NCBI GenBank assembly: GCA_963834935.1
Contig: CAWIDS010000001.1
Coordinates: 139,524-203,523, forward strand
DNA: 64,000 nucleotides
From: Candidatus Nomurabacteria bacterium
Lineage (GTDB): Bacteria; Patescibacteriota; Minisyncoccia; Phycocordibacterales; CALRBL01
Direction: 5' to 3'
Of the stretch, positions 6,401 through 39,909 are shown in pieces. The translations under genes were made by a program, and so were the position numbers. Positions within the stretch are counted from its first letter, which is position 1. Each line of letters begins with the position of its first letter. Below the pieces are notes generated by a model. That model had not been told where the DNA came from. It was given only the letters and a program-made list of their open reading frames with translations, and did not search any database.

Positions 6401-6422
6401 TTGAGAACAGTATATCAAGTAA

Positions 6423-6974: not shown

Positions 6975-7011
6975 TGTTAATGTTAAAACTATTAAAATCT
7001 TCTGTACCGAT

Positions 7012-7019
7012 ATTATACA
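7012..7019 (-). promoter_or_regulatory. Extended -10 promoter element (TGTATAAT) for pilA
   Basis: The minus strand reads ...TTGATTtcggaatatgccTGTATAATatcgg... about 38 nt upstream of the pilA ATG, inside the pilC-pilA intergenic region. Confidence 0.45.
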
Positions 7020-7067
7020 GGCATATTCCGAAATCAACAACAAGCATGTGGATAAGTCTCCGAAGGG

Positions 7068-8279: not shown

Positions 8280-8292
8280 TGGTTATTTGTGA

Positions 8293-9363
8293 TTAAAGCA
8301 TCTTTTCTAGGATCTTGGAATTGCTCGAGTGAAGGTAGGCATTCTCGAGGGTGATTTCCCCTTTGCGCACGAGCTCGGCAAGCATGCGATTCATGTCGAT
8401 CATTCCGGATTCGGTACCTGTCTCGATGACAGTATTGATCTCGTGAGTGCGCTTCTCGCGGATGAGGTTTGCAACGGCATTATTAACGATCAAAAGCTCA
8501 TAGACCGGGATGAGTCCGCCCGATATGCGCGACACCAGGCGCTGCGAGAAGACGCCAATCAGGCTTCCTGAAAGCTGCACGCGGATCTGATCCTGCTGAT
8601 TAGGAGGAAATGAGTCGATGATGCGGTCGATGGTCTGGGCGGCATTATTGGTGTGAAGGGTCGAGAAGACAAGGTGCCCAGTCTCCGCTGCTGTCACAGC
8701 TGATGCCATGGTTTCAGGATCACGCATCTCTCCGACCAATATCACATTGACGTCTTGGCGCAAGACATTGATGAGGCCGGTATAAAAGTTGACGGTATCC
8801 AATCGAACCTCCCTCTGATCGATGATTGATTTCTTCTGGTCGTAAACATATTCAATCGGATCCTCGATAGTGATGATGTGCTCGGCTCGCGATCGGTTGA
8901 TGAGCTCGATTATGGCGGCAAGCGTCGTAGATTTTCCCTGTCCGACAGGTCCCACTACCAAGAAAAATCCCTGCTTCTTTGCCGCAAAGACTTCCAAGAT
9001 TGGAGGAAGTCCCAGTTCCTGAAGTCCCCTGATTTCCTTTTGGATCAGCCTCAACGCGATACTGATCAATCCCTGCTGAAAATAAGCATTTCCTCGGAAA
9101 CGGCCGTTCAATCCTTCGGTGGTATATGAAAAATCGATCTCTTTATTCTTGATGAAAAGCTCCTTGCTAGCGGGAGTAAGCAAGATATCCAGGAAAGCCT
9201 TGACATGATCATGAGTAAGAACCTCCTTGCTCACTAAAGGGATGAGCTCTGTGGCGACCCTGATTGCCGGATATCTCCCTTCTGATATATGGAGATCTGA
9301 CCCTCCTTCCTTCACTACGGTAAAAATAAGGTCCTTGAGCTTTTCTTCGTAATTGTTCTGCAT
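8293..9363 (-). CDS. pilT: Type IV pilus retraction ATPase PilT
   Basis: 356 aa. It has the Walker A motif GPVGQGKSTT, Asp/His boxes and PilT size, and is separate from the longer PilB paralogue. Confidence 0.85.
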   Translation of the reverse strand: MQNNYEEKLKDLIFTVVKEGGSDLHISEGRYPAIRVATELIPLVSKEVLTHDHVKAFLDILLTPASKELFIKNKEIDFSYTTEGLNGRFRGNAYFQQGLISIALRLIQKEIRGLQELGLPPILEVFAAKKQGFFLVVGPVGQGKSTTLAAIIELINRSRAEHIITIEDPIEYVYDQKKSIIDQREVRLDTVNFYTGLINVLRQDVNVILVGEMRDPETMASAVTAAETGHLVFSTLHTNNAAQTIDRIIDSFPPNQQDQIRVQLSGSLIGVFSQRLVSRISGGLIPVYELLIVNNAVANLIREKRTHEINTVIETGTESGMIDMNRMLAELVRKGEITLENAYLHSSNSKILEKML

Positions 9364-9364
9364 A

Positions 9365-9766
9365 TTATTTCATTTTGCTTTTCTCTGCGACAATCCTCTC
9401 CACTTCAGCTACCACTTCGGAAGGGATGCTTGTGGCCTTGATAATGTAACCATCCACCTTCAGCGACTCTGCCTTCTCGATATCGCTTACTTGGCCTTGA
9501 TTGGTGAGCATGATAACGATTGCCTTAGGCAAAAGCTTCTCTCCCCTCATATTCGAAAGGAAAGTCAGTCCGTCCACCTGGGGCATGACTACGTCAAGGA
9601 GAATGATATCAGGTACGAAGCCTCCTTTTATCTGCTGCATGGCATCGGCGCCGTCATGGGCAGTGAAAACTTCATAGCCTTTCGTCTTGAACTTGATCGA
9701 ATACATGTCGAGCAGGAATTTGTCGTCATCGATCAGGAATATTTTTAGATTATTTTTATTTTCCAT
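9365..9766 (-). CDS. Single-domain response regulator (CheY-like receiver, PilH/PilG-like)
   Basis: 133 aa, with LIDDD...DIILLDVVMP (phospho-acceptor Asp) and a conserved Lys region. It sits between pilB and pilT. Confidence 0.8.
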   Translation of the reverse strand: MENKNNLKIFLIDDDKFLLDMYSIKFKTKGYEVFTAHDGADAMQQIKGGFVPDIILLDVVMPQVDGLTFLSNMRGEKLLPKAIVIMLTNQGQVSDIEKAESLKVDGYIIKATSIPSEVVAEVERIVAEKSKMK

Positions 9767-9772
9767 TTTATT

Positions 9773-11488
9773 TTAGAGCTTGTTTATTTCCTCGAAAGGA
9801 ATCTTCTTCTCCAATGCTTTTATTATAGCATCTTCCTTCATTGTGAACATTCCCGCCTGGCGGACAATAGGCCACATCGCGCTTTCAGTCGGGTTAGCAA
9901 GGATCATCTTCTCCAATTCTCTGGTCATCTCGAATGCCTCGAATACCGCCATTCGTCCGCGCACGCCTTTCGGGCAATCCGGTGTGGGCTCGATGCCGAG
10001 CACCTCGCTTGCAATCGGGATAGCTTTCTTGTATTCATCGGGAATTTCCTGGAACTCCCTGTCGAACATCACCTTGATGCTACCCTCGATAGGAAGATGT
10101 CTTCCCGTGCCTGGGCAAATCTGAGCAACAAGTCGCTGTGCCATAGTAAGGATGAGCGTCGGAGCGATAAGATAGGGATCGACACCCATGTCTATGAGAC
10201 GGGGAATGGCGCCAAGGGCTGTGTTAGTGTGGATCGTCGAAAGCACCAAGTGTCCGGTGAGAGCAGCTTGTATTGCAAGCTGGGCGGTTTCCTTGTCTCG
10301 AATCTCCCCCACCATGATCACGTCAGGGTCCTGTCGAAGGGCAGTTCGAAGACCGGTGGCGAACGTATAGCCGATTTCCGGATGAACTTGTGATTGAGAA
10401 ACGCCCTCGATGTTGTATTCCACTGGATCCTCGAGGGAAAGCACGTTGTACTCTTCCCTGTCTATCTCATTGAGCATGGAGTAAAGCGTGGTTGATTTTC
10501 CGGAACCAGTCGGACCGGTAATCAGGATCAGCCCATAAGGGCGATTGATGGCGCGCCTTATGATATCGAGATTGCGCTTGCTGAGCCCGACTTCGTCGAT
10601 CCTCTTCACTCCTTTTTCCTGATCAAGGATTCGCATCACGATCTTCTCTCCGTAATACGACGGAAATGTCGAGACACGGAAGTCAATCTTCCTTCCCTCG
10701 ATACGTGCGCTGAAGCGGCCGTCCTGCGGTTTCCTTTTCTCGTCGAGCTTCATGTCAGAAAGAATCTTGATGCGGGCGACCACCGCCGGCTGGACTTTTG
10801 TAGGCAAGACGATGCTGGTATTAAGCACTCCGTCCACCCTGAAACGCACCCTGACATTCTCCCTCATCGGCTCGATATGGATATCAGAAGCATTGCCGTC
10901 GAGGCCGTAGTGAAGGATAGTCGCCACCACTTTAGTGACAGGCGCATCCTCGACAATGTTGATGCTGTTGTCCGAGCTGCTTTGCTTCTTTATCGATTGA
11001 AGCTCTACCCCTTCGTCTGAAAATTCAGTTTCGAGGTCAGTGAGGGCTTTGGTCACTTCGCCTGAAAGGCCTTTGTATGATACCAGCACCTTGTCGAAGT
11101 CTTGCTGGGTGATGAGGAACATCTTGAAGGGCATGTGCACGCGCGAAGAGATGAAGTTCAAGGCATCGGCAGCTCCGATATTCTCCGGATCGACGATTCC
11201 CACTTCGAGCACGCCTCCCTGCACATCGATAGGCACGATCTTGTAATAAGTCGCCGACTCTTCAGGAATGTAACTCAGCATCTCGAAAGGAATATCCTTG
11301 TTTTCGAGGCTTCTAAAAGGAAGCGAGTAATAAGAAGCCTTCTGCTTGTAGATCTCAGTCGGATCGATGCCTTTTGCCACAAGGATTTCTTCGAGGCTTT
11401 TGCCTGTCTCGTCTACTTCCTGGCGGATCGAATCAACATCCCCCTCCTTTATTATTCCGTTTTTTGAGAGTGCTGCTAAGAAGCTCAT
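9773..11488 (-). CDS. pilB: Type IV pilus assembly ATPase PilB (GspE family)
   Basis: 571 aa. It has an N-terminal GspII-like domain and the Walker A motif GPTGSGKSTT. There is no tetra-Cys motif. Confidence 0.88.
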   Translation of the reverse strand: MSFLAALSKNGIIKEGDVDSIRQEVDETGKSLEEILVAKGIDPTEIYKQKASYYSLPFRSLENKDIPFEMLSYIPEESATYYKIVPIDVQGGVLEVGIVDPENIGAADALNFISSRVHMPFKMFLITQQDFDKVLVSYKGLSGEVTKALTDLETEFSDEGVELQSIKKQSSSDNSINIVEDAPVTKVVATILHYGLDGNASDIHIEPMRENVRVRFRVDGVLNTSIVLPTKVQPAVVARIKILSDMKLDEKRKPQDGRFSARIEGRKIDFRVSTFPSYYGEKIVMRILDQEKGVKRIDEVGLSKRNLDIIRRAINRPYGLILITGPTGSGKSTTLYSMLNEIDREEYNVLSLEDPVEYNIEGVSQSQVHPEIGYTFATGLRTALRQDPDVIMVGEIRDKETAQLAIQAALTGHLVLSTIHTNTALGAIPRLIDMGVDPYLIAPTLILTMAQRLVAQICPGTGRHLPIEGSIKVMFDREFQEIPDEYKKAIPIASEVLGIEPTPDCPKGVRGRMAVFEAFEMTRELEKMILANPTESAMWPIVRQAGMFTMKEDAIIKALEKKIPFEEINKL

Positions 11489-11499
11489 TTATTTGCGCA

Positions 11500-11790
11500 T
11501 TAAAAGGGAGCGAACGGATTATCTCGCCCGATCGCCTCATCTGGCAGAGGCTGGCTATAATCCTGGAGCGACATGAAAGCTTTATCCTGGAAAAAAGCGC
11601 CGCTCAGATCGACCCTGCTCAAGAGATTGATCTGATTGATGAATTTCTGGGCAAGAAGGCTGGAATCCGAAAGAGTGGAAGGATCTGAACTCGTAAGAAA
11701 AGCGTCGGCATGGCTCGTCGATGAGAAGAAGAACGAGCCTACGAAAAGAAGAGCTAGTGTCAGAAATGTGGCGATGATTATTTTTTTCAT
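11500..11790 (-). CDS. Small secreted hypothetical protein (possible PilP-like accessory)
   Basis: 96 aa. It has the signal peptide MKKIIIATFLTLALLFVGSFFFSSTSHA and lies between pilO and pilB. Confidence 0.5.
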   Translation of the reverse strand: MKKIIIATFLTLALLFVGSFFFSSTSHADAFLTSSDPSTLSDSSLLAQKFINQINLLSRVDLSGAFFQDKAFMSLQDYSQPLPDEAIGRDNPFAPF

Positions 11791-11796
11791 ATTGTT

Positions 11797-12345
11797 TTAT
11801 TTTAGCCAATAAGTCCTGAGTGTCACGGAAAAATCATATACATTGCTGGTGTCAGTCGGAGTGAAAGATACTGACCTGACGTCGACAAGTCTCAAGCTCT
11901 GCTCGAGCCTCTGGAGAAAAAGGACAAAATTAGGATATGAAGAAGTGACGACGAAGGAAAGATCGACTGATTGAATACCAAAAGGATTATTTGAAGTAGG
12001 ATTGCCGGATTGATCTACTGCGTCTTTGGTATCGGATACGTTTATACTTTTCAAAAGCATGCCCGACTGCAAGGCTATGTTCTTTATGTCGATGATGAGC
12101 TTTACGTTATCGATGGTATCGGGAATAAGTTTGTTAAGGCGATCGACATCCGACTGGCTGAAGCTGGCAAGCTGCTGCTTGTCGGCGCTTATTTTCGCCT
12201 GAAGGATATTTCCCTGACTTAACGCATCATCATAGGTCTTGATCTGGCTTTGGAGAGAAAGGACATTACCATACGCCGGCTTGATCAACCCGAAAAAGAT
12301 TCCTATTGAAGCGAGTATGAGAAGTGAGGCGATGATGTTTTTCAT
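11797..12345 (-). CDS. pilO: Pilus assembly protein PilO-like
   Basis: 182 aa. It has an N-terminal TM, a coiled-coil, then a beta domain, and sits at the pilMNO position. Confidence 0.65.
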   Translation of the reverse strand: MKNIIASLLILASIGIFFGLIKPAYGNVLSLQSQIKTYDDALSQGNILQAKISADKQQLASFSQSDVDRLNKLIPDTIDNVKLIIDIKNIALQSGMLLKSINVSDTKDAVDQSGNPTSNNPFGIQSVDLSFVVTSSYPNFVLFLQRLEQSLRLVDVRSVSFTPTDTSNVYDFSVTLRTYWLK

Positions 12346-12348
12346 ATG

Positions 12349-13029
12349 TTAATTCCCTTTGGTGCTTGTCGAAACATGAGCAGTAGATGTAGCCGCAACA
12401 TTATTGCTTACGACGTTGCTTACGATCGGAGCTCCTCCAAGATTAGCCCTGTATGATATAAGGGAGGGATTGATGCTTGTGATGAGGCTGAAGTCTACAT
12501 TGCCAGTAGGATTCAGCGACAGATCGGAAAAGACGGCATTCTGGAAATTATTGCTTATTCCGGCTATATTCGAGAAATCATCTGCCTGTTTCGCTACTGC
12601 TTCGAAGCTCTGAGCCTCGCCCTTCATGCTCAAGGCTATCTTGTCGCTTGAAAGATATGAAAATGAAAAATCAGTGAAGCGAAGATTCTTCAGCGTAGAG
12701 CTTTGCAAGGCCGCAAACAGGGCTGAGATGGCCAAATGCCCATCCAGAAGGATCTTTCCGGCCTTCATCTTCAGGTCGATGCGTGAAATAGGGTTTATCG
12801 AGGAATAATCGAGCTTATTATTCTCATCAGCGAGGGCGGCGCTTTTGACCTTCAAGCTATTCTGAAGAATATTCTGATAGGCATAAAGGCCTCCTGCAAG
12901 CGCGAGGGTCAGGACAATCAAGATAGAAGCGATTACTAAAAAGATGCTATAAGGGGAAGACATCTTTAACTTTCCTCCATCTTCTATGGTTGTCTTTGGA
13001 ATGAACGAGGTTTGAAATTTACTTTCCAT
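12349..13029 (-). CDS. pilN: Pilus assembly protein PilN-like (fimbrial assembly)
   Basis: It has a single TM (SIFLVIASILIVLTLALAGGLYAY) and follows pilM. The true start is probably the internal Met at about 12963. Confidence 0.65.
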   Translation of the reverse strand: MESKFQTSFIPKTTIEDGGKLKMSSPYSIFLVIASILIVLTLALAGGLYAYQNILQNSLKVKSAALADENNKLDYSSINPISRIDLKMKAGKILLDGHLAISALFAALQSSTLKNLRFTDFSFSYLSSDKIALSMKGEAQSFEAVAKQADDFSNIAGISNNFQNAVFSDLSLNPTGNVDFSLITSINPSLISYRANLGGAPIVSNVVSNNVAATSTAHVSTSTKGN

Positions 13030-13080
13030 GGCAATAGTATAGCAATAATTCCGTCAATTAGCACAAGTTTTCCACATTAT

Positions 13081-14259
13081 TTATTGATTTTCTTCAAGTT
13101 TTCGGAGCGCCACTCCCACGGCGACAGCGAATTCAAGGCCGGTGGAGCGAAGCATCGCCGAAAGATGCGCCGGCGCCTCTACTTTTACGAACGGGTCGCC
13201 GACTTCCGTCTTTATCTGCAGATTTTTTTCCGCCAAAACGGAAAAACCGTCGAATTCTACTCCTCCGCCAGTAAGGATGCATTTTTCGATCGTTCTTTCG
13301 TACTTCCTCTGATAGCTGGTGATGAAATTCCTGCCTTCGGTCCAGACATGATCAAGGGTCAACGACAGGATATCCATGACTGTCTTCTTATCAGTTTCTT
13401 TGAGAGTACCGATATTGCGCTTGATTTTCTCGGCTTCCTTAAAATCGACGCCGAGCGCTTTCGAAAGGTTTTGAGTCATAGTTTCCGATCCCTTGTTGAC
13501 GATGTGCGAGCCGCGGATGACTCCCCTTTCTATTATATAGAACTTGATTCCGAGCGCGCCGACGTCCATCACCAGAAGAGGCTTGTTTTCCCTTCCGACG
13601 AGCGAACGAGTGGCGCTAAACATCTCAATCTCGAAAAAGCTCGTCTCAAGGCTATTGTCTTTGACGATATTGTTGTAGTCGCTGAGTATCTCGTTGTGGA
13701 TGGAGACAACAAGCACGTCGGTCTTGTCCTTTATCCGCGGAAGCTCGGGGCCCGCAATACCGCTTTGCTCGTGAGCCTTGGCTTTCGTCTCCGCTTTCGC
13801 TTCTTCCACCGGATCGTAACTTTCTTTCGGAATGATCCACCAGTCCATAGTCACTTCGGAAATAGGCACGGGGATATATTTGCGGGCTTCGATAGGGATC
13901 ATCTCTTCAAGCTTTTTTTCCGGCAGCAAAGGCATTTCAATGAGCGAGATGAGACTTGAGCGGAAAGGAATGGCTACCCCCGAATTCTTGGTCGAGATAT
14001 TCGCTTCATGAAGGATGTCACGAAGGGCTTCCGCGATCTTGTCATTTGAGAGCTTGCTTATCTCTCCGATAGTGCCGCCAGAATAAGGCCCGAGAGAAAG
14101 CTCGCCGTACGCTTTAAGCACCGCTTTGCCTTTTTCTTTCTTGAGCTCTACCACTTTGATGGAAGAAGAGCCTATATCGATGCCCACGACGCTCTTATTC
14201 AAGGAACCGAGGAAGTTCCTAGGGCTTAGTATTTTTTTGAATGATCCGATTATGTCCAT
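13081..14259 (-). CDS. pilM: Type IV pilus assembly protein PilM (actin-like ATPase fold)
   Basis: It has VVGIDIGSSSIKVVEL near the N-terminus and a sugar-kinase/actin fold. I set the start at MDIIGSFKKIL (14259), not the track's 14379. Confidence 0.8.
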   Translation of the reverse strand: MDIIGSFKKILSPRNFLGSLNKSVVGIDIGSSSIKVVELKKEKGKAVLKAYGELSLGPYSGGTIGEISKLSNDKIAEALRDILHEANISTKNSGVAIPFRSSLISLIEMPLLPEKKLEEMIPIEARKYIPVPISEVTMDWWIIPKESYDPVEEAKAETKAKAHEQSGIAGPELPRIKDKTDVLVVSIHNEILSDYNNIVKDNSLETSFFEIEMFSATRSLVGRENKPLLVMDVGALGIKFYIIERGVIRGSHIVNKGSETMTQNLSKALGVDFKEAEKIKRNIGTLKETDKKTVMDILSLTLDHVWTEGRNFITSYQRKYERTIEKCILTGGGVEFDGFSVLAEKNLQIKTEVGDPFVKVEAPAHLSAMLRSTGLEFAVAVGVALRKLEENQ

Positions 14260-14938
14260 GGAATTTATGAGAGCTTTAGAGAAAATTGAACGCGCACTGC
14301 CATATTTCAAGTATATCATGCTATTTAAACAGCTGCATAGATTAATCAGATCGCACGCCCTCTCTTTTATCTTCGGCACGGTTGAAATCTTTCCGAAGCT
14401 CGACGCTCCCCGCTTGAAAAGGATAATGTGCGCCGACAGCGAGGTCGAATGCTTCGCATTTTTCTCCTACCGCGATCCGGAAATCAAAAAAGCCGTCGCC
14501 GAAATGAAATACCGCCGCAATGCTGAGCTTTTTGAAATCGCCGCGCATCACCTTGCCAAGGAGATGCCGCCATTCGGCAACTATCCCCTTCTCATTCCCG
14601 TGCCTTTATCAGAAAAAAGAAAAAAGCAAAGGGGATATAACCAGACGGAAGAGATGCTCAGGCACATTGGAAGGAAAATTGCCGCAGGAACTGTCGAGAT
14701 CAGGATGGACTGCATGAGCAAGATAATTCACACGCCCCCGCAGACTCATCTGAATAGGAAAGAAAGGATGAAGAACCTAGCTGGCGCATTCAAAGTCCTC
14801 TTGCCAGATATTATCCGTGACCGAGAAATCATCATCTTCGACGACGTCATCACCACAGGCTCGACCATCCGGGAAATAGGCAAAACGCTCAAACAAGCTG
14901 GCGCGCAGAAAATAATCGCCTTTGCTCTCGCTCATTAA
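14252..14938 (+). CDS. comFC: ComF-family phosphoribosyltransferase-like competence protein, without the N-terminal Zn-finger
   Basis: It has a C-terminal PRTase motif (IIFDDVITTGSTIRE) and GYNQTEEML, and diverges from pilM. The start is ambiguous: 14252, 14258 or 14318. The track start at 14126 overlaps pilM and is rejected. Confidence 0.65.
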   Translation: MSMEFMRALEKIERALPYFKYIMLFKQLHRLIRSHALSFIFGTVEIFPKLDAPRLKRIMCADSEVECFAFFSYRDPEIKKAVAEMKYRRNAELFEIAAHHLAKEMPPFGNYPLLIPVPLSEKRKKQRGYNQTEEMLRHIGRKIAAGTVEIRMDCMSKIIHTPPQTHLNRKERMKNLAGAFKVLLPDIIRDREIIIFDDVITTGSTIREIGKTLKQAGAQKIIAFALAH

Positions 14939-16353: not shown

Positions 16354-16441
16354 GGAGACGTGTCAGAGTGGTCTAACGTACCTCTTTGCTAAAGAGGCAG
16401 GGGCTTTAAACCCCCTCGCGAGTTCGAATCTCGCCGTCTCC
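16354..16441 (+). tRNA. tRNA-Ser (anticodon GCU)
   Basis: Acceptor GGAGACG/CGTCTCC+G; anticodon arm CCTCT-TTGCTAA-AGAGG; a long variable arm GGGGCTTTAAACCCCC; T-arm GCGAG-TTCGAAT-CTCGC. Confidence 0.85.
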
Positions 16442-16446
16442 GCAAA

Positions 16447-19637: not shown

Positions 19638-20453
19638 ATGAAGACCGCCGCATTCTTATCCACAGTCATAGGATTTTACGAGGAGAACAAAAGGGATTTT
19701 GCCTGGAGAAAGACCAGGAATCCCTATAGGATTCTGGTGTCTGAAGTGATGCTCCAGCAGACCCAAGTCGAGAGGGTCAAAGGCTTCTATTCCGCGTTCC
19801 TTAAGCGATTCCCGACCGTCAAAGCCCTTGATGATGCACCTTTGGTGCAAGTCCTATCAGCATGGAAGGGTCTGGGCTACAATCGGCGCGCTGCTAACAT
19901 GAAGAAGCTTGCCGGAGTGATAGCTGCCGATTTTAAGGGAATATTTCCAAAAAATTACCAGATGCTGCTCGCACTCCCAGGAATCGGACCCTCGACCGCC
20001 GGTGCGCTAATGAATTTCTCTTATGGCATTCCCACCCCTTTCATCGAGACAAACATACGAAGCGTCTATCTCCGCTCCTTCTTTAAAGGAAAAAACGGCG
20101 TCAATGACAAGGAAATACTAGTGCTCATTGAAAAGCATTTGAAAATAAAAAAGAAGCTTGATTGCCGGGAATGGTTTTACGCCCTGTACGATTATGGAGC
20201 CATGCTGAAAAAGACTTCCGGCAACGAGAACAGGAGAAGCGTCCATTACAAGAAACAAAGCACATTTAAGGGATCCAATCGCGAGCTGCGCTCTCTTATG
20301 CTTTCATACCTGCTCAAGCACAAAAATGCAGCCATCGCCAAGATGACGAGTGCCCTGAAGAAAGAAGAGTTAGCAATACTGAAGAACATCATCGCCTTCG
20401 AAAAGGAAGGACTCATTACCCGCAAAGGCTCCCATGTTACCATAAGCAAATGA
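19638..20453 (+). CDS. HhH-GPD base-excision glycosylase, MutY-like N-terminal domain without an Fe-S cluster, plus a C-terminal wHTH-like extension
   Basis: VSEVMLQQTQVERV matches the MutY catalytic Glu region. A GIGPSTAGA HhH is present. There is only one Cys, so no C-X6-C-X2-C-X5-C. IETNIRSV stands where MutY/Nth have the catalytic Asp. TATAAT lies at 19620-19625 just upstream. Confidence 0.7.
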   Translation: MKTAAFLSTVIGFYEENKRDFAWRKTRNPYRILVSEVMLQQTQVERVKGFYSAFLKRFPTVKALDDAPLVQVLSAWKGLGYNRRAANMKKLAGVIAADFKGIFPKNYQMLLALPGIGPSTAGALMNFSYGIPTPFIETNIRSVYLRSFFKGKNGVNDKEILVLIEKHLKIKKKLDCREWFYALYDYGAMLKKTSGNENRRSVHYKKQSTFKGSNRELRSLMLSYLLKHKNAAIAKMTSALKKEELAILKNIIAFEKEGLITRKGSHVTISK

Positions 20454-22591
20454 ATCCCTCAGACCTGATATCAAAACATTTTCCCCTCAACGAATATGAA
20501 AAAAACGGCTTGAAGAAGCTCGGCCTTTCCACGATCGCCGATATCCTCTACTATTTCCCCGCCCGCTACGGCGATTCGGCTGAAGCAAAGCGCATCGGCG
20601 ACCTTGCCGAGGGCGAGACCACAAGCGTCTTCGGAAAGATAAAAAACTTGAAGACGAGCAATGCTTTCATAAAGAAAATACCGATGTCCGAAGGTATCAT
20701 CGAAGACGAAACTGGAAGCATCAAAGCAATCTGGTTCCACCAGCCATACATCGCAAAGATGATTAAGGAGGATAGCCTTGTCAGGATCGAAGGAAAAGTT
20801 TCCCTTCGCAAAGGATCTCTTTACATGAGCAATCCGAAGATCGAGAAAGTAGCATCCATCCCGCTCAATATCGGCAGTTCCCTTTTTGGCGATGACGGAG
20901 CAAGCCATACCCTCTATCCCGTTTATTCGGAAACAAAAGGCGTCACTTCGAACTGGCTCTACCACGCATTCCTGAAGATTGCCCGCCGCGGCACCATTGA
21001 AAAGATGAAAGAAATGGTTCCCGAGGATATCCTCAGGAAATACAGCCTGCCGACGCTCCAGACCGCGCTCATCTGGATACATACCCCGCATGACAAGGAG
21101 GATGCCCTTTCCGCCCGCAAACGTTTCGCTTTCGAGGAGATATTCCTGATCCAGCTCAAGAAGCAGCAGGAACGCATGGAGAGGCAGAAGGAAAAGACAG
21201 CAATCATTAGCGGCAAGGAAAAAAAGGTCAAGGAATTCCTTACTCAGTTCCCTTTTAAGCCGACAGCATCTCAAAATAATGCCATCAGCGGCATCCTTTC
21301 GGATTTCAAGGCAGGCACAGCAATGTCGCGATTGCTCGAAGGAGATGTCGGTTCGGGAAAAACGCTTGTCGCTGCAGCCACAGCCTTCGCTGCCTATCCG
21401 GAATTCCAGGTTGCCTATATGGCGCCGACTGAAATCCTGGCCCGCCAGCATTTCGAATCTTTCATATCGTATTTCGGGCATCTTCCCATCAAGATCGCGC
21501 TCATCACCGGAAATGGCTGCCTGAAATTCCCTTCCAAAGTCGATCCTGAAGGGCACACTCCTATTTCCCGCAGCCAGCTTCTTAAATGGGTGAAGAACGG
21601 CGAGATATCGATCGTCATCGGCACGCATGCCCTCATTCAGAAATCGGTAACCTTCAAGAGCCTCTCTTATGTCATCATCGACGAGCAGCATCGCTTCGGC
21701 ACCAACCAGCGCAAGGCGCTCGTGCATAAGAATGACAGTGAGATATCATCAATACTGCCGCACTTGCTATCGATGACTGCAACGCCGATTCCCCGAACGC
21801 TCGCACTCACGATGTACGGGGACCTCGACCTCACGCTCCTCGATGAGATGCCAGCCGGGCGGAAGCCGGTCATCACCGAGATAATATTCCCGCAAAAAAG
21901 AAAGGAGATGTACGAGAAAGTGCGTGCTGAGCTTAAAGAAGGAAGGCAAGCATACGTCATCTGCCCGCGCATCAATGCACCCGACCCTGACAAGGAAAAA
22001 TCCTTGAATGCCCGATCTGTAAAAGAAGAAGCCGAAATGCTCAAGAAGACCGTCTTCAAGGAATACGATATAGAAATAATGCACAGCAAGATGAAGCCGG
22101 CCGAAAAGGAAAAGGTGATGAAGGATTTTTACGAAGGCAAGATAGACATTCTCGTCTCCACGTCGGTAGTGGAAGTCGGAGTGAACGTGCCGAATGCCAC
22201 TGTCATCATGATAGAGGGAGCTGAGCGCTTCGGCCTGTCGCAGCTCCATCAGCTTCGCGGGCGCGTCATCCGCGGCAATCATCAGGCATACTGTTATATC
22301 CTCACCGATAGTAGCAGCGCCAAAAGCGCCGAGCGGCTCAAAGCCCTAACCAAAGCAAAGAACGGCTTCGAACTGGCCGAGCTTGATCTGGCTCTTCGTG
22401 GTGCTGGCGAGCTCTATGGCCGGAAGCAATGGGGCATTTCAGACATCGCCATGGATGCGCTCAAGAACATCAAGATGGTGGAGTTTGCAAGAAACGAAGC
22501 AAAGGATATCATCAATGATGACCCTTCGCTTTCAAGATACCCGGATTTGCTGAAAATCCTCGAGAAAAGGAAGGATATCCATATGGAATGA
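20450..22591 (+). CDS. recG: ATP-dependent DNA helicase RecG
   Basis: 713 aa. It has a wedge domain and the helicase motifs DVGSGKT, DEQHRFG and QLHQLRGRVIRG. The start overlaps the previous stop (ATGA). Confidence 0.92.
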   Translation: MNPSDLISKHFPLNEYEKNGLKKLGLSTIADILYYFPARYGDSAEAKRIGDLAEGETTSVFGKIKNLKTSNAFIKKIPMSEGIIEDETGSIKAIWFHQPYIAKMIKEDSLVRIEGKVSLRKGSLYMSNPKIEKVASIPLNIGSSLFGDDGASHTLYPVYSETKGVTSNWLYHAFLKIARRGTIEKMKEMVPEDILRKYSLPTLQTALIWIHTPHDKEDALSARKRFAFEEIFLIQLKKQQERMERQKEKTAIISGKEKKVKEFLTQFPFKPTASQNNAISGILSDFKAGTAMSRLLEGDVGSGKTLVAAATAFAAYPEFQVAYMAPTEILARQHFESFISYFGHLPIKIALITGNGCLKFPSKVDPEGHTPISRSQLLKWVKNGEISIVIGTHALIQKSVTFKSLSYVIIDEQHRFGTNQRKALVHKNDSEISSILPHLLSMTATPIPRTLALTMYGDLDLTLLDEMPAGRKPVITEIIFPQKRKEMYEKVRAELKEGRQAYVICPRINAPDPDKEKSLNARSVKEEAEMLKKTVFKEYDIEIMHSKMKPAEKEKVMKDFYEGKIDILVSTSVVEVGVNVPNATVIMIEGAERFGLSQLHQLRGRVIRGNHQAYCYILTDSSSAKSAERLKALTKAKNGFELAELDLALRGAGELYGRKQWGISDIAMDALKNIKMVEFARNEAKDIINDDPSLSRYPDLLKILEKRKDIHME

Positions 22592-23500: not shown

Positions 23501-23577
23501 GCGCGTGTAGCTCAGTTGGTTAGAGCACAGAGCTTATACCTCTGCGGTCCTTGGTTCGAATCCAAGCACGCGCACCA
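23501..23577 (+). tRNA. tRNA-Ile with UAU anticodon (CCA encoded)
   Basis: GCGCGTG-TA-GCTC-AGTTGGTTA-GAGC-A-CAGAG-CTTATAC-CTCTG-CGGTC-CTTGG-TTCGAAT-CCAAG-CACGCGC-ACCA. The anticodon loop CTTATAC puts TAT at positions 34-36. Confidence 0.8.
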
Positions 23578-33194: not shown

Positions 33195-33264
33195 ATTAAG
33201 TCAATTATTTATAACCGTGCTAATGCAGATATTGTAGCATATCCAGCCTTTTCCCTTTCCGTTG

Positions 33265-33337
33265 TGCGAGTAGTAGGATTCGAACCTACGACCCCATCAG
33301 TATCAGTGATGTGCTCTACCAACTGAGCTATACTCGC
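33265..33337 (-). tRNA. tRNA-Ile (anticodon GAU)
   Basis: Minus-strand reading: GCGAGTA-TA-GCTC-AGTTGGTA-GAGC-A-CATCA-CTGATAC-TGATG-GGGTC-GTAGG-TTCGAAT-CCTAC-TACTCGC-A. It lies about 740 nt downstream of the 16S 3' end. Confidence 0.85.
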
Positions 33338-33452
33338 ATATTATTCTATTCTCTGCGTCAAAACACCATATCAAAAAAACGATAAATAGGAAAGCGCCTG
33401 CGGGGATGGACCCGGAGGCGCTTTAGTTTTCAGCGGGGATGAACTTCCCTTA

Positions 33453-33677
33453 TCAACGGGAAGGAAAAGCATCCCTTTCGGCAAGCTGTCGATCAGCTTC
33501 CGCTTGCCTGGCAGCGATAATCCGGTAGTTACCGTCATCTTCGCGGTTAGAGGCGGCGATGAGTTCTTTGCCTACCCACTTAAGGCCAATGAAGGCATAG
33601 TGAGGGGCAAATGGCAGTATCGGACTCAGACATACCAGACATACTGCGGTGATAAAAAGGAGATTGATTTTTTTCAT
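33453..33677 (-). CDS. Small secreted hypothetical protein (74 aa)
   Basis: It has the signal peptide MKKINLLFITAVCLVCLSPILPFA. It lies between the 16S terminator and tRNA-Ile, and its start overlaps (ATGA) a 21-35-aa hydrophobic micro-ORF. Confidence 0.4.
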   Translation of the reverse strand: MKKINLLFITAVCLVCLSPILPFAPHYAFIGLKWVGKELIAASNREDDGNYRIIAARQAEADRQLAERDAFPSR

Positions 33678-33887
33678 CCCTTCACCATCCTTTCAAGGAT
33701 GACCGCACCGATTACCAGAAGAATGAAACCGGCGTTCATCCAGTACACCTCCTTCTCGGCTTCTGTTTTCATTTTTTTCATTTTTTTCTTTTTGTTCAAA
33801 GATCCTTGCCCCGCCAAGGACACGGTCCTTGAACGATTGTTTTGATTCTCCTATATTATATCACATAAGCACCTAAAGTCAAACAGC

Positions 33888-33916
33888 AAAAAACACCCGT
33901 TTCTAGGTGTTTTTTG
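33888..33916. terminator. Bidirectional rho-independent terminator downstream of the 16S rRNA
   Basis: aaaaa-acacc-cgtttcta-ggtgt-tttttgg is an A-tract/hairpin/T-tract usable on either strand. Confidence 0.6.
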
Positions 33917-34074
33917 GTTTATTCTCTATTTTGTTCCGTCCTAATTGTTATTTTTGGTCTTTCCCAATGTCCGCCGGTTTAAGGTTCCGACAAACCCTTC
34001 TGTGCTCAATTGAGGCACAGAAAATCGACTCCGTAAGCCTTACTGCTCCGAAGAGCAATGAGACGATTTTCAAA

Positions 34075-35660
<1,586 letters not shown>

Positions 35661-35845
35661 CTAATATAAAGTGCCGAAGCACTTTTTCAATTAGAACGGA
35701 ACAAAATAAAGAATAAATTTCATTTTGCCGTATTGGTTCTACTTTCTTGTCGTTTTGGACTTGCACGTATTTCGAATACGTTCAAGAATCATTCAATTGT
35801 CAAATAACGGCCTCTTTCAAAGAGGTTTACACAGTATAGTCATTT

Positions 35846-36535
35846 TTAGACGGTAGTCAAGGGCGGGTTTATAGAGGCAATTTCAGCTGGCTTGTGGGCC
35901 TTATCAAGTTTGTCATAGACATAAAGAAAGGCACAAAAGCTGATAGGAACAGTGACAAAAAGGCCGACAATGAAGCAAAGGAGGCCGACGAAATTGAAAG
36001 CGGCAATTATGAGGAACAAAAGAAGCAGCTTGAGCCTGTTGCCTCGGGTGAGGGTGGCACTTTCCTTAAAAGCTTCTATCGGGCCCAAATCCTTGTCGAT
36101 TATTAGGATCTTCACGAAACAATACATGAGGATGAAGAATATGCCCGGAATGATAAAAAGGATAAAGCCTACAATCAGGATGATTGCGAGCAAAAAAGAG
36201 CCTCCAATAAGATTGAGGAAGCAGGCAGGATAAGTGAAGAGATCGCTGACATCCGGATCCCCTCCGCGTATCATCAGGAGGCCTTGCTTGTAGACATTAA
36301 TGGAAAAGAATATATAAAAGACAACGAGAGCAAGGGTAATGACGGAGCAAATGAAGAAAAGAGTTGAGCTCGTCTGAGCATGACCGCCACGAGGATTCTC
36401 CAGTGAATTCACTATGCTCATGGCTATCTGGAATATGGCCGCATAAAGGATGACTAACGATACTTTGCCGATATGCTTCCTGCATGTCTCGTAACCGAAA
36501 ACAAAGGCTTCCTTGATTGAAAATGTATTACTCAT
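35846..36535 (-). CDS. Hypothetical polytopic membrane protein (229 aa)
   Basis: About 6 TM. No family recognised. Confidence 0.5.
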   Translation of the reverse strand: MSNTFSIKEAFVFGYETCRKHIGKVSLVILYAAIFQIAMSIVNSLENPRGGHAQTSSTLFFICSVITLALVVFYIFFSINVYKQGLLMIRGGDPDVSDLFTYPACFLNLIGGSFLLAIILIVGFILFIIPGIFFILMYCFVKILIIDKDLGPIEAFKESATLTRGNRLKLLLLFLIIAAFNFVGLLCFIVGLFVTVPISFCAFLYVYDKLDKAHKPAEIASINPPLTTV

Positions 36536-36560
36536 ATGCTGATATTATACCACAAGAAAA

Positions 36561-37460
36561 TTACTTTTTCCTATTCTGCCACTTCTCAAGTGTGACAAGA
36601 AGCGGCGAACCGAGAAAGACCGAAGAATAGGTTCCTGCGGTAATTCCGATGAGAAGAGCAAGGGCGAAATCACGAGTCGCTTCAGATCCGAATATGTAGA
36701 GCACCACCAAAGAAAGAAGTACCGTGAGCGAGGTGTTTATTGACCTGGTGAATGTTTCCTGGATACTCTCCCCTACGATAGTCTCGAAACTCTTCTTCTC
36801 GCTCGCTTTGCGGTTCTTGAGATTTTCGCGAACCCTGTCGAATACCACGATAGTATCATGAACGGAAAAGCCGAGGATCACCAGAAGCGCCGTTATGAAA
36901 AGGGTGTCGATCTCCAAGCCGGCGAAATGTCCAAGAATGGCGAATGCGCCGGTAGGTACGATGACGTCATGAACGAGGGCTACAATAGCCACCAATCCGT
37001 ATTTGAACGAAGAGACAGGCTCTGATACTTTTCTGAAAGCGAAAGTGATGAAAAGGACGATAGCGATGATGACGGCGATGATCGAATACATTGCTTTAGC
37101 CTGGAGCTCTTGTCCGAGGATGGGACCTACTGAATCGAATTCATTCACTACATAGCCCGAAGACGGTCCGAGGTTGTTCAAGAACGCTGTCCTGTCAGAA
37201 TCTGAAAGGCTTTTCGTCCTGATGATATAACCGTTGTTGCCAGTAGGGCGAATCGATACTTCACCGAGAGAAAGGCGTCCGATGGTATCCTGCATCTCAG
37301 AAAGGGTCGGGCGGCCGGCAGGATAGGAAATCTCGATGAGCGAGCCTCCCTTGAAGTCGATACCGAAATTAAGTCCCCAGAAACAGATGGAGAAAATGGA
37401 AATGATCACCAGGATGGCTGAGAAGGTGTAGAAGATTTTTCGATGGCGTACGATATTCAT
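36561..37460 (-). CDS. secF: Protein translocase subunit SecF
   Basis: 299 aa, GIDFKGGSLIEISY, downstream of secD. Confidence 0.88.
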   Translation of the reverse strand: MNIVRHRKIFYTFSAILVIISIFSICFWGLNFGIDFKGGSLIEISYPAGRPTLSEMQDTIGRLSLGEVSIRPTGNNGYIIRTKSLSDSDRTAFLNNLGPSSGYVVNEFDSVGPILGQELQAKAMYSIIAVIIAIVLFITFAFRKVSEPVSSFKYGLVAIVALVHDVIVPTGAFAILGHFAGLEIDTLFITALLVILGFSVHDTIVVFDRVRENLKNRKASEKKSFETIVGESIQETFTRSINTSLTVLLSLVVLYIFGSEATRDFALALLIGITAGTYSSVFLGSPLLVTLEKWQNRKK

Positions 37461-37465
37461 ATATT

Positions 37466-38761
37466 TTATTTATTTTTCCTTAAATGGAATCCGCTTCCGA
37501 AGAAGAATCTTATGGATTTCTTTTCATGGGCATTATGAGCCTTCGAAGCCACTGCAAAGAGGAATGTTCGCGAGACGGTGATGGCGGTGAACATCGATAC
37601 TAAGACTCCCATTCCGAAGACCAAGGCGAATCCCTTGATGAGTGCTGAGGTTGCGAACCAGAAAAGTATAACGGCAGTGATGATGCTCGAAAGGTTTCCG
37701 TCACGGATGGAGGACCATGCGCGGGTGAATCCTTCGCGGATAGCGTCTTGCAAAGGAAGTCCTTTATGAAGCTCTTCCTTCATGCGCTCGAATATCAGGA
37801 TATTGGCATCCACGGCCATTCCGATCGAGAGGATGAATCCGGCAAGGCCCGCTGAGGTGAGGGTTACAGGAATGAGCTTAAAAAGAGCAAGGTTGATCGA
37901 GACGTACAAAGCCAATGATACCGTAGCAATGAGTCCAGGCAATCGGTACCAAAGGATGAGGAAAAGGGCAGTAACAATAAAGCCGATGATTCCCGCTTCG
38001 ATGCTCTTGTGAAGGGCGTCAGATCCCAGGGATGCGCCAATAGTCTGGCTGCCGATAAGATTAATAGGGACAGGTAACGCGCCGTAGTTCAAATTGCGGA
38101 CGAGATCTCGCGCTTGGACTGCAGTGAAGCCTCCGGAAATCTGGGCTTTTCCGTCAGTGATCGCTTCTTGGATGACAGGGGTTGAAATAGGGCGTCCGTC
38201 GAGAAAGATAGCCATCACCTTGCCCACGTTCTGAGAGGTGATTTTGGCAAACAAATCCTTTCCTTCTGAGTTGAATTGGAGTGTGACCACCGGGCTTCCC
38301 GTCTGGCTATCGAAATCCAAAGTCGATTGCTGAAGAAGGCTGCCTGTAAGGCCGGTCGGCAAATAGACAGGAGTAGAAGTGCCTGAAGTAGTGGAAGCGA
38401 GGCGGAAATCAAGGACTGGAGTCTGGCCGATAATAGCCACCGCCTTGTTCACATCAGTAACGCCGGGAAGCTCCACGACCAGCTTCTCTACTTTCTGACC
38501 GCCGACATTTGCTTCTTCGACTTGGACGAGAGGCTCAGAAACGCCGAAGATATTGATGCGGTTCTCGATGACATCGCGAAGCGACTGCATCGAGCCTGCA
38601 ACATCGCCATCTCCTATCTTTGATACGTCAGCCTGATAGATAAGATGAGTTCCGCCGTTAAGGTCAAGGCCGAGCTTGAAGGGATAGCCCTTGAAGACGA
38701 AATAGCCGATAAGAAGTCCTACTAGAACCAGTACCACCGAGAAAATGCGGGCTTTTTTCAT
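37466..38761 (-). CDS. secD: Protein translocase subunit SecD
   Basis: 431 aa, LGLDLNGGTHLIYQAD, with a large periplasmic-type loop and a C-terminal TM bundle. Confidence 0.88.
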   Translation of the reverse strand: MKKARIFSVVLVLVGLLIGYFVFKGYPFKLGLDLNGGTHLIYQADVSKIGDGDVAGSMQSLRDVIENRINIFGVSEPLVQVEEANVGGQKVEKLVVELPGVTDVNKAVAIIGQTPVLDFRLASTTSGTSTPVYLPTGLTGSLLQQSTLDFDSQTGSPVVTLQFNSEGKDLFAKITSQNVGKVMAIFLDGRPISTPVIQEAITDGKAQISGGFTAVQARDLVRNLNYGALPVPINLIGSQTIGASLGSDALHKSIEAGIIGFIVTALFLILWYRLPGLIATVSLALYVSINLALFKLIPVTLTSAGLAGFILSIGMAVDANILIFERMKEELHKGLPLQDAIREGFTRAWSSIRDGNLSSIITAVILFWFATSALIKGFALVFGMGVLVSMFTAITVSRTFLFAVASKAHNAHEKKSIRFFFGSGFHLRKNK

Positions 38762-38818
38762 AAATTTGGAATGTAGCGAATATTATAGCTAGATTTGGAT
38801 AAATAGCAAAGTTTATTT

Positions 38819-39880: not shown

Positions 39881-39909
39881 GTAGATAAATAAATAGTAGC
39901 ACGAAAACG

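What the first reader, a model, noticed from the sequence alone, without database searches (positions are those of the whole stretch)
23501..23577. tRNA-Ile with a genomically encoded UAU anticodon
The cloverleaf is canonical and the anticodon loop CTTATAC places TAT at positions 34-36. Most bacteria decode AUA with tRNA-Ile(CAU) modified by TilS (lysidine). An encoded UAU anticodon is rare (the Mycoplasma mobile type) and implies a TilS-independent AUA decoding system, which requires a way to avoid misreading AUG. A conventional tRNA-Ile(GAU) is also present at 33265..33337.
Basis: partly seen in the sequence, partly recalled or inferred. Interest (0 to 1): 0.5.

Follow-up and report, generated by a model that had tools for sequence, protein, structure and literature searches.

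The report
Genomically encoded UAU isoleucine tRNA
This is a real isoleucine tRNA gene whose anticodon (UAU) reads the AUA codon directly, and it belongs to a family conserved across a large part of the ultrasmall Patescibacteria, where it appears to replace the usual lysidine-modified tRNA.

Summary
Window 23501-23577 (+) is a canonical 77-nt tRNA with anticodon TAT (23535-23537), discriminator A73 and an encoded CCA. tRNA-Ile(GAT) lies at 33264-33337 (-).

The gene is not a one-off. The window organism is a Parcubacteria/Paceibacteria-type member of the Patescibacteria (CPR). The same D-arm plus anticodon arm occurs in at least 119 species genomes of that phylum. In 80 metagenome loci chosen only for an ftsH relative, 56 of the 60 with at least 1 kb downstream carry tRNA-Ile(TAT).

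The family shows strong compensatory covariation and a near-invariant loop, CUUAUAC. AUA is frequent in the window (20 per 1000 codons) and sits at Ile-type positions.

tilS and tRNA-Ile2(CAU) could not be checked in this genome, because only 64 kb is visible. No tilS was found in 1.89 Mb of related DNA. In a published table of 95 complete Patescibacteria genomes, 40 of the 45 with two non-CAU tRNA-Ile genes have only one or two CAU tRNAs, and all 50 with one tRNA-Ile have three or more. The most likely reading is the Mycoplasma mobile-type, TilS-independent AUA decoder. It is a new member of a known kind, but apparently lineage-wide here rather than rare.

The parts
23501..23577 (+). tRNA-Ile(UAU) gene, 77 nt including the encoded 3' CCA (23575-23577)
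   Evidence: ARAGORN; Rfam RF00005, 73.7 bits; sequence read; family covariation
23535..23537 (+). anticodon TAT (tRNA positions 34-36) within the loop CTTATAC (23533-23539; C32 ... C38)
   Evidence: The loop is C32-U33-U34-A35-U36-A37 in all 105 distinct family members. Position 38 is C in 101 and U in 4
33264..33337 (-). tRNA-Ile(GAU), the partner tRNA for AUU/AUC, immediately downstream of the 16S rRNA gene. Its anticodon loop is CTGATAC (also C32/C38) and it has no encoded CCA
20450..22591 (+). recG, a neighbour that anchors synteny. It is not functionally part of the decoding system, but it is linked to tRNA-Ile(UAU) in 73 of 120 related loci
   Evidence: Pfam RecG_wedge/DEAD/Helicase_C; neighbourhood clustering

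Best explanation
A functional minor isoleucine tRNA ('tRNA-Ile3') with a genomically encoded UAU anticodon. It is charged by IleRS and reads AUA by a Watson-Crick U34:A3 pair. tRNA-Ile(GAU) reads AUU and AUC.

In this Parcubacteria/Paceibacteria-type Patescibacterium it takes the place of the usual pair of tRNA-Ile2(CAU) and the lysidine synthetase TilS. This is the Mycoplasma mobile-type solution.

Shown here:
- The gene is real and is under strong purifying selection across a large clade.
- AUA is a frequent codon and is used as Ile.
- The anticodon loop is almost invariant.

Inferred:
- tilS and tRNA-Ile2(CAU) are absent from this genome.
- IleRS accepts U34.
- AUG misreading through U:G wobble is held down by an unmodified U34 in a weak, all-A/U codon-anticodon helix, by competition from tRNA-Met, and possibly by the conserved C32/C38 loop or by the ribosome, as reported for M. 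mobile and the B. subtilis suppressor.
For: - tRNA calls and sequence.
- The exact 35-nt D-arm plus anticodon arm occurs in at least 119 GTDB species genomes, all Patescibacteria. All full-length copies are called tRNA-Ile(tat).
- In an sample seeded only on FtsH, 60 of 80 metagenome loci carry tRNA-Ile(TAT). That is 56 of the 60 loci with at least 1 kb downstream of ftsH.
- Cloverleaf covariation: 99.7% of cells paired, 17 of 21 pairs with compensatory changes, and A73 in 105 of 105 distinct sequences.
- AUA is 20.3 per 1000 codons, 22.7% of Ile codons, more frequent than AUU, and present in all 49 ORFs tested.
- ATA codons in RecG and FtsH align with Ile 49%, Val 18%, Leu 15% and Met 3.5% in homologues. 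This is the same profile as ATT and ATC, and unlike ATG.
- No PP-loop or TilS-like ORF was found in 1.89 Mb of window plus related DNA, either by motif or by tblastn with three solved TilS sequences. This covers 54 GTDB loci with at least 1 kb, and 59 metagenome loci with at least 1.5 kb, upstream of ftsH. That is where tilS sits in Southlakia epibionticum.
- Published Table S2 of PMC13011429 covers 95 complete Patescibacteria genomes. Of the 45 with two or more non-CAU tRNA-Ile genes, 40 have two or fewer CAU tRNAs. All 50 with a single tRNA-Ile have three or more. Within Paceibacteria, 14 of the 15 two-Ile genomes have two CAU tRNAs.
- Mechanistic precedents: M. mobile (unmodified U34, adapted IleRS, ribosome-dependent AUA specificity) and the B. 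subtilis tilS-deletion suppressor (unmodified U34, strong AUA and weak AUG binding).
Against: - tilS, tRNA-Ile2(CAU) and IleRS of this genome lie outside the 64-kb window and could not be examined.
- The related DNA searched is concentrated around ftsH and the tRNA, so a tilS elsewhere would be missed.
- The published table gives counts per amino acid, not anticodons. That the second tRNA-Ile is UAU is inferred from my own scans.
- Five of the 45 two-Ile genomes still have three CAU tRNAs, so a redundant state exists in the phylum.
- Some bacteria (Lactobacillus casei and L. plantarum, a Cyanothece, a Ferrimonas) carry both a TAT gene and tilS.
- One related locus (L167) has a CAU tRNA of unassigned type beside ftsH together with the UAU tRNA.
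- The modification state of U34 is unknown.
Confidence: 0.78

Rival explanations
1. Redundant state. The genome has both systems, tRNA-Ile(UAU) and TilS plus tRNA-Ile2(CAU), as in Lactobacillus casei and L. plantarum. The UAU tRNA then supplements lysidine-dependent AUA decoding rather than replacing it.
For: Such genomes exist (Taniguchi 2013). Five of the 45 two-Ile complete Patescibacteria genomes have three CAU tRNAs. tilS exists in the phylum (Southlakia epibionticum). This genome could not be checked.
Against: Forty of 45 two-Ile genomes, and 14 of 15 in Paceibacteria, have only one or two CAU tRNAs. No tilS was found in 1.89 Mb of related DNA, including the ftsH neighbourhood. Lasting redundancy is unlikely in genomes of about 1 Mb or less (inference).
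Confidence: 0.15
2. The tRNA works as described, but U34 is modified after transcription (for example to pseudouridine as in eukaryotic tRNA-Ile(UAU), or to an xm5U-type base). AUA/AUG discrimination would then depend on a modification enzyme rather than on an unmodified U.
For: Eukaryotic tRNA-Ile(UAU) carries pseudouridine-A-pseudouridine, and Taniguchi et al. raise modification as a possibility for M. suis. The invariant C32/C38 loop could be a recognition element for such an enzyme.
Against: Both bacterial cases analysed chemically, M. mobile and the B. subtilis suppressor, have unmodified U34. No candidate enzyme was seen next to the gene. xm5U-type bases generally favour reading of G, which would be harmful here (general knowledge, not tested).
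Confidence: 0.2
3. The gene is a mobile-element or phage-derived tRNA, a recent transfer, or a decaying pseudogene with no role in the host's own decoding.
For: Phages often carry tRNAs for rare codons (general knowledge). In the window the gene is not next to ftsH, unlike in most relatives.
Against: The neighbours are housekeeping genes (recG, cysS, a base-excision glycosylase). Upstream synteny is shared with the closest relative, L086. The gene is conserved with compensatory changes across at least 119 species and 60 metagenome loci. AUA is abundant in every gene.
Confidence: 0.02
4. The codon has been reassigned. The UAU tRNA is charged with methionine or another amino acid, so AUA is not Ile (as in many mitochondria).
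For: None beyond the formal possibility.
Against: The substitution profile of ATA codons matches that of ATT and ATC (Ile 49%, Met 3.5%) and is unlike ATG (Met 63%). The tRNA shares A73, U12:A23 and the C32/C38 loop with tRNA-Ile(GAU).
Confidence: 0.01

Closest known systems
Mycoplasma mobile tRNA-Ile2(UAU) system (Taniguchi et al. 2013, PMC3575796)
   Same: Bacterial tRNA-Ile with a genomically encoded UAU anticodon that reads AUA without lysidine. A37 follows U36, so it is compatible with t6A. The organism has a reduced genome.
   Different: The M. mobile case is an isolated loss within Tenericutes. Here the gene is conserved across a large clade of Patescibacteria. The IleRS adaptation (Arg865), the unmodified U34 and the ribosome effect shown for M. 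mobile are untested here. The C32/C38 loop is a conserved feature here, and I could not compare it with M. mobile because the sequence is only in that paper's figures.
Bifidobacterium and Neorickettsia tRNA-Ile(UAU), with no tilS and a eukaryote-type IleRS
   Same: tRNA-Ile(UAU) in place of tRNA-Ile2(CAU). A type-2 (eukaryote/archaeal-like) IleRS is a plausible parallel: the Saccharibacterium S. epibionticum IleRS has no Pfam zf-FPG_IleRS domain and has two tandem C-terminal anticodon-binding-like domains.
   Different: The IleRS of the window organism and of its UAU-type relatives was not seen. S. epibionticum itself uses the canonical system.
Bacillus subtilis tilS-deletion suppressor, tRNA-Ile1 G34U (Fabret 2011; Kohrer 2014, PMC3919564)
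   Same: A UAU anticodon on an Ile tRNA body. Unmodified U34 binds AUA strongly and AUG weakly, which shows that the solution is viable in a bacterium.
   Different: That is a laboratory mutant derived from tRNA-Ile(GAU). Here the gene is ancient and natural. It is 77% identical to the window's tRNA-Ile(GAU), which does not settle its origin.
Canonical bacterial tRNA-Ile2(CAU) plus TilS (lysidine), as in Southlakia epibionticum and other Saccharimonadia
   Same: Same task, dedicated decoding of AUA as Ile, within the same phylum.
   Different: The anticodon is CAT and needs the essential enzyme TilS. S. epibionticum has tilS next to ftsH, three CAU tRNAs and one tRNA-Ile. The window gene has TAT.
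Nanoarchaeum equitans and Korarchaeum cryptofilum tRNA-Ile(UAU), with no TiaS
   Same: An ultrasmall or reduced organism that dispenses with the C34-modifying enzyme by encoding UAU.
   Different: Archaeal, with an independent origin.

Membership tests
Bacterial tRNA-Ile(UAU) / TilS-independent AUA decoding (M. mobile type) | tRNA gene with a canonical cloverleaf and TAT at positions 34-36 | tested here: met
Bacterial tRNA-Ile(UAU) / TilS-independent AUA decoding (M. mobile type) | Isoleucine identity: the tRNA accepts Ile and AUA is read as Ile | tested here: met
   Indirect. ATA codons have the Ile substitution profile. A73, U12:A23, A37 and the C32/C38 loop are shared with the window's tRNA-Ile(GAU). 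No isotype-specific covariance model and no biochemistry was available.
Bacterial tRNA-Ile(UAU) / TilS-independent AUA decoding (M. mobile type) | No tRNA-Ile2(CAU) gene in the genome | tested here: inconclusive
   No CAU tRNA in the 64-kb window, but the rest of the genome is not visible. At clade level, 40 of 45 two-Ile complete Patescibacteria genomes have two or fewer CAU tRNAs.
Bacterial tRNA-Ile(UAU) / TilS-independent AUA decoding (M. mobile type) | No tilS gene in the genome | tested here: inconclusive
   No TilS in the window (Pfam on 40 ORFs; motif search) or in 1.89 Mb of related loci. A generic TilS search listed only Aquificae and Enterobacteria.
Bacterial tRNA-Ile(UAU) / TilS-independent AUA decoding (M. 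mobile type) | IleRS able to accept U34 (Arg/Lys at the E. coli W905 position, or a type-2 IleRS) | not tested
   IleRS is not encoded in the window or in any locus held.
Bacterial tRNA-Ile(UAU) / TilS-independent AUA decoding (M. mobile type) | Unmodified U34 and discrimination against AUG on the cognate ribosome | not testable with these tools
   Needs mass spectrometry or tRNA sequencing, and ribosome binding assays.
Canonical tRNA-Ile2 (lysidine type) | Genomic CAT anticodon, a substrate for TilS | tested here: not met
   The anticodon is TAT. No family member among 105 distinct sequences has CAT.
Eukaryote-type tRNA-Ile(UAU) | Intron-containing gene in a eukaryotic context | tested here: not met
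   The gene is continuous (77 nt) and lies in a bacterial gene context with bacterial rRNAs.

The most novel reading that the evidence does not exclude
Roughly half of the Patescibacteria, not a handful of oddities, have permanently replaced the lysidine system (TilS plus tRNA-Ile2(CAU)) with a genomically encoded tRNA-Ile(UAU). The classes concerned are most Paceibacteria/Parcubacteria, Microgenomatia, Dojkabacteria, ABY1, WWE3, UBA1384, Doudnabacteria and some Gracilibacteria. The nearly invariant C32/C38 anticodon loop is shared with the lineage's tRNA-Ile(GAU), and it may be the lineage's device for IleRS recognition, for suppressing AUG misreading, or for both. I found no paper in the searchable library that states this. 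The supplementary data of one 2026 paper contain the pattern, but its text does not discuss it.
Probability: 0.6. Interest if true: 0.6.

Novelty: new member of a known kind. Interest (0 to 1): 0.45.

Why it matters
AUA decoding is the textbook case in which a single base modification (lysidine) sets both codon and amino-acid specificity, and TilS is regarded as near-universal and essential in bacteria. [quoted passage not shown]

If a large share of one of the biggest bacterial radiations does without it, several things follow:
- TilS is less universal than assumed.
- These organisms offer many independent natural sequences for studying how IleRS and the ribosome cope with a UAU anticodon.
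- Annotation pipelines should expect tRNA-Ile(UAU), and should not report a missing Ile2 in these genomes.
- TilS-directed antibacterial ideas would not apply to them.

For this single gene the result is modest. It is a correctly called tRNA of a known type that is typical for its lineage.

Tried and rejected
1. Finding the source genome to scan it for tilS and Ile2. The look-up of encoding contigs returned only short Logan contigs of sample ERR10755936 that duplicate the window. The 432,723-bp source contig was not delivered.

2. Generic TilS search with a profile of the A. aeolicus, G. kaustophilus and E. coli N-terminal domains. Only the best 120 of 3,970 hits are listed, and all that carry an organism name are Aquificae or Enterobacterales. 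It could not reach Patescibacteria.

3. PP-loop motif and tblastn searches for TilS, and tblastn for IleRS, in all DNA held. There were no TilS hits. The only IleRS-query hit was a weak class-I synthetase match in L067.

4. ORFs directly upstream of ftsH on the same strand were inspected by eye as possible divergent TilS. None has a PP-loop. One is a reverse transcriptase.

5. Literature searches that combined Patescibacteria, CPR, Saccharibacteria or Parcubacteria with lysidine, tilS, UAU or 'AUA codon' found nothing on the topic.

It is a lead only.

7. The consensus promoter and terminator scan around the gene found nothing.

8. Single-sequence MFE folding does not return the cloverleaf. 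This is usual for tRNAs and is overridden by the covariation result.

9. The NCBI label 'uncultured Candidatus Saccharibacteria' on many hits was rejected as a lineage assignment. Independently named relatives and the RecA neighbours are Parcubacteria/Paceibacteria.

Full report
**1. Observation**

ARAGORN finds four tRNAs in the window. One is tRNA-Ile with anticodon tat at 23501-23577 (+), and another is tRNA-Ile(gat) at 33264-33337 (-). Rfam's tRNA model scores the first at 73.7 bits (E = 3e-14) and the second at 76.6 bits.

The sequence is GCGCGTG TA GCTC AGTTGGTTA GAGC A CAGAG CTTATAC CTCTG CGGTC CTTGG TTCGAAT CCAAG CACGCGC A CCA. That is a standard cloverleaf with these features:
- anticodon loop CTTATAC, with TAT at positions 34-36 (window 23535-23537);
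- A37;
- discriminator A73;
- a genomically encoded CCA.

The GAU gene is on the minus strand.

**2. The organism**

The window has about 47% G+C and is densely packed with short genes. It carries a type IV pilus cluster and housekeeping genes: ligA, recG, cysS, pyk, secDF, ftsW, ftsK and recA. Its rRNA genes are unlinked.

Every protein tested is a singleton at 90% identity and sits on one 432,723-bp contig held by NCBI and ENA. The named RecA neighbours, at 80-89% identity, are Paceibacterota, Parcubacteria, Taylorbacteria, Zambryskibacteria and Minisyncoccota. The organism is therefore a Parcubacteria/Paceibacteria-type member of the Patescibacteria (CPR).

**3. The gene is one member of a large conserved family**

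- *Species genomes.* An exact 35-nt pattern (D arm plus anticodon arm, including TAT) occurs in at least 119 GTDB species genomes. ARAGORN calls a full tRNA-Ile(tat) at these sites. From 113 full copies there are 53 distinct sequences, which differ by paired changes in the acceptor and T stems.
- *Sample chosen independently of the tRNA.* I took the FtsH protein of one such locus and fetched the 80 best FtsH relatives (66-86% identity) from metagenome contigs. Sixty of the 80 carry tRNA-Ile(tat). That is 56 of the 60 loci with at least 1 kb of sequence downstream of ftsH, at a median distance of 603 bp. Only 10 of these 60 have the exact 35-mer, so the count of 119 species is a small lower bound.
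- *Covariation.* On 50 distinct sequences the cloverleaf is 99.7% paired. Seventeen of 21 pairs change on both sides. The covariation score is 0.753, against 0.179 in shuffles (0 of 500 reach it) and at most 0.164 for slid partners.
- *Invariant positions.* These are U8, A9, G10, C11, U12, A14, G18, G19, A23, C32-U33-U34-A35-U36-A37, the T-loop core and A73. Position 38 is C in 101 of 105 distinct sequences and U in 4.

This is a functional tRNA under purifying selection. It is not a chance match, a pseudogene or a recent import.

**4. Codon usage and meaning of AUA**

In 49 window ORFs of at least 150 aa (15,681 codons), the counts per 1000 codons are AUA 20.3, AUU 19.1 and AUC 50.2. AUA makes up 22.7% of Ile codons and occurs in every ORF. 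For comparison, a 2025 survey gives 4.9 per 1000 for E. coli and classes values above 10 as high.

I also made codon-aware alignments of RecG (52 sequences) and FtsH (72 sequences) from the related loci. Positions carrying ATA are occupied in the other sequences by Ile 49%, Val 18%, Leu 15% and Met 3.5%. This is indistinguishable from ATT and ATC, and unlike ATG, where Met is 63%. AUA therefore means isoleucine and is used freely.

**5. Isotype**

tRNAscan-SE isotype models were not available, so the evidence is indirect:
- the codon evidence above;
- A73 and U12:A23;
- A37 after U36;
- an anticodon loop (C32 ... C38) that the window's tRNA-Ile(GAU) shares exactly apart from position 34 (CTGATAC against CTTATAC).

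From my own knowledge of E. coli identity studies, A38 is usual in bacterial tRNA-Ile. A lineage-specific C38 in both Ile isoacceptors argues that one IleRS reads both. The two window tRNAs are 77% identical overall.

**6. Is decoding independent of TilS?**

The long source contig is not retrievable. Three lines of indirect evidence bear on it.

(a) *Synteny.*
- In the cultivated Saccharibacterium Southlakia epibionticum, tilS (SEML1_0730) lies directly next to ftsH. The genome is annotated with three 'tRNA-Met' (CAU) genes and a single tRNA-Ile, which is the canonical system (PMC10633639 supplements).
- In the window's clade, ftsH is instead followed by tRNA-Ile(UAU). This holds in 91 of 120 GTDB-derived loci and in the metagenome sample.
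- The gene upstream of ftsH is usually smpB, never tilS. Fifty-four GTDB loci have at least 1 kb, and 59 metagenome loci at least 1.5 kb, upstream of ftsH.

(b) *Direct search of the DNA held.* No PP-loop (SGGxD[ST]) ORF was found, and tblastn with E. coli, G. kaustophilus and A. aeolicus TilS gave no hit, anywhere in the 1.89 Mb of window plus related DNA. This DNA is clustered around ftsH and the tRNA, so a tilS elsewhere is not excluded.

(c) *Whole-genome tRNA counts from the literature.* Table S2 of Nakagawa et al. 2026 (PMC13011429) lists tRNA counts for 95 complete Patescibacteria genomes. The table counts only the 20 standard amino-acid labels. Its tRNAscan-SE columns evidently leave out Ile2 and fMet, because in canonical genomes (tRNAscan-SE Met = 1) ARAGORN counts three 'Met', that is, every CAU tRNA.

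| Non-CAU tRNA-Ile genes (tRNAscan-SE 2.0) | Genomes | Two or fewer CAU tRNAs | Three or more CAU tRNAs |
|---|---|---|---|
| Two or more | 45 | 40 | 5 |
| One | 50 | 0 | 50 |

- Two CAU tRNAs are only enough for initiator and elongator Met.
- Fisher's exact test gives 1e-21, not corrected for phylogeny.
- The split follows classes. Saccharimonadia, JAEDAM01 and Kazan-3B-28 are canonical. Dojkabacteria, Microgenomatia, ABY1, WWE3, UBA1384 and Doudnabacteria are of the two-Ile type.
- The split also occurs within classes. Paceibacteria has 14 two-Ile genomes with two CAU tRNAs, 5 canonical genomes and 1 with both. Gracilibacteria has 2 two-Ile genomes and 3 canonical ones.
- The table does not give anticodons. 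That the second Ile tRNA is UAU is my inference from section 3.

The window already shows both tRNA-Ile(GAU) and tRNA-Ile(UAU). It therefore belongs to the two-Ile type, of which about 90% lack a third CAU tRNA. Without a CAU substrate, TilS has no known role. I put the probability that this genome lacks the lysidine system at about 0.8.

**7. Mechanism**

*Shown:*
- the gene and its conservation;
- the use of AUA as Ile;
- the invariant loop.

*Inferred from precedent:*
- IleRS must accept U34. In M. mobile this needs Arg865 in the zinc-binding domain, and other tilS-less bacteria have a eukaryote-type IleRS.
- U34 is probably unmodified, as in M. mobile and the B. subtilis suppressor. Unmodified U34 binds AUA strongly and AUG weakly, and the M. 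mobile ribosome adds specificity.
- The S. epibionticum IleRS lacks the Pfam zinc-finger domain of type-1 enzymes and ends in two similar anticodon-binding-like domains. This hints that the phylum has a type-2 IleRS, but no IleRS from a UAU-type genome was seen.

*Speculation:* the conserved C32/C38 pair may tune the loop for IleRS recognition, or weaken A-site binding enough to reject the U:G wobble.

**8. Comparison with what is known, and novelty**

tRNA-Ile(UAU) replacing tRNA-Ile2(CAU) is known in several groups:
- nine bacterial species in three clades (Taniguchi 2013);
- 17 genomes of Bifidobacterium, Mycoplasma and Neorickettsia in the tRNAscan-SE 2.0 survey;
- two archaea.

Taniguchi et al. 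also noted 371 unassigned TAT tDNAs in metagenomes. Many of these may well be Patescibacteria.

The window gene is thus a new member of a known kind. It is typical for its lineage rather than exceptional within it. What seems not to have been stated is the scale: about half of the complete genomes of this phylum show the pattern. Eight full-text searches combining the phylum's names with lysidine, tilS, UAU or AUA found nothing. The one paper whose supplementary table shows the pattern does not mention UAU or TilS. Subscription literature was not searchable.

**9. Verdict**

- 'Rare' is true for bacteria in general and false for this clade.
- Interest is moderate at 0.45. The single gene is ordinary in its context. 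The lineage-wide replacement it points to deserves a proper whole-genome survey.

Noticed in passing
window 33264-48853 (-): The rRNA genes are unlinked and in an unusual order. 23S (45555-48853) and 5S (45356-45464) lie about 9.7 kb upstream of 16S (34073-35669) on the same strand, with ten ORFs of at least 60 aa between them, eight of at least 100 aa (ftsW, a VWA protein, a sugar transferase, an epimerase, secD and secF among them). 16S is followed only by tRNA-Ile(GAU), with no tRNA-Ala. The 23S match spans 3,299 nt against a 2,925-nt model and the 16S match 1,597 nt against 1,533, so both carry extra sequence. No ORF of at least 100 aa lies inside the 23S gene, and Rfam reports no intron there at gathering threshold.
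   Followed up: no
L002-L120 and L124-L203; not in the window: ftsH lies immediately upstream of tRNA-Ile(UAU) on the same strand in 91 of 120 GTDB loci and in most of the FtsH-seeded metagenome loci (median gap 603 bp). smpB and tmRNA lie upstream and recG downstream. In other bacteria, and in a Saccharibacterium, tilS is the gene linked to ftsH, so the AUA-decoding function stays linked to ftsH even though the gene differs. In the window and its closest relative (L086) the tRNA follows recG instead, and ftsH is elsewhere.
   Followed up: partly
L142 17969-18056, L146 15065-15154, L172 20554-20643, L186 7009-7097; also L045 and L052: A tRNA-Ser with anticodon ACT (loop TTACTAA) lies next to tRNA-Ser(GCT) in several related genomes. 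An encoded A34 outside tRNA-Arg(ACG) is unusual in bacteria. The window has only tRNA-Ser(GCT), at 16354-16443.
   Followed up: no
L159 1832-1905 and L167 2439-2512: A CAU-anticodon tRNA lies directly upstream of ftsH in two related metagenome loci. It has a G1:C72 pair and an A31-G39 mismatch at the bottom of the anticodon stem. Its type (elongator Met or Ile2) was not assigned. L167 also carries tRNA-Ile(UAU).
   Followed up: partly
window 23575-23577 and 33255-33263: The window's tRNA-Ile(UAU) encodes its 3' CCA, but only 14 of 173 related copies do. The window's tRNA-Ile(GAU) does not: A73 is followed by CAAC.
   Followed up: partly
window ORFs overall: Codon usage is strongly codon-specific rather than driven by composition. 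AUA (20.3 per 1000) exceeds AUU (19.1), and GGA is as common as GGC. CUA and UUA are rare (3.2 and 3.8 per 1000). All three stop codons are used (TAA 28, TAG 12, TGA 9), so there is no sign of the UGA recoding seen in some CPR lineages.
   Followed up: partly
L109, ORF directly upstream of ftsH (324 aa): A reverse-transcriptase-like ORF (motif YADD), of group II intron or retron type, is inserted between the usual upstream neighbour and ftsH in one related genome.
   Followed up: no
window 3348-14379 (-): A type IV pilus gene cluster: prepilin peptidase, N-methyl pilins, a PilB-type T2SSE ATPase with an MshEN domain, a second T2SSE-family ATPase, PilC (T2SSF), a response regulator, PilM and PilO. 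This is typical of episymbiotic Patescibacteria.
   Followed up: no
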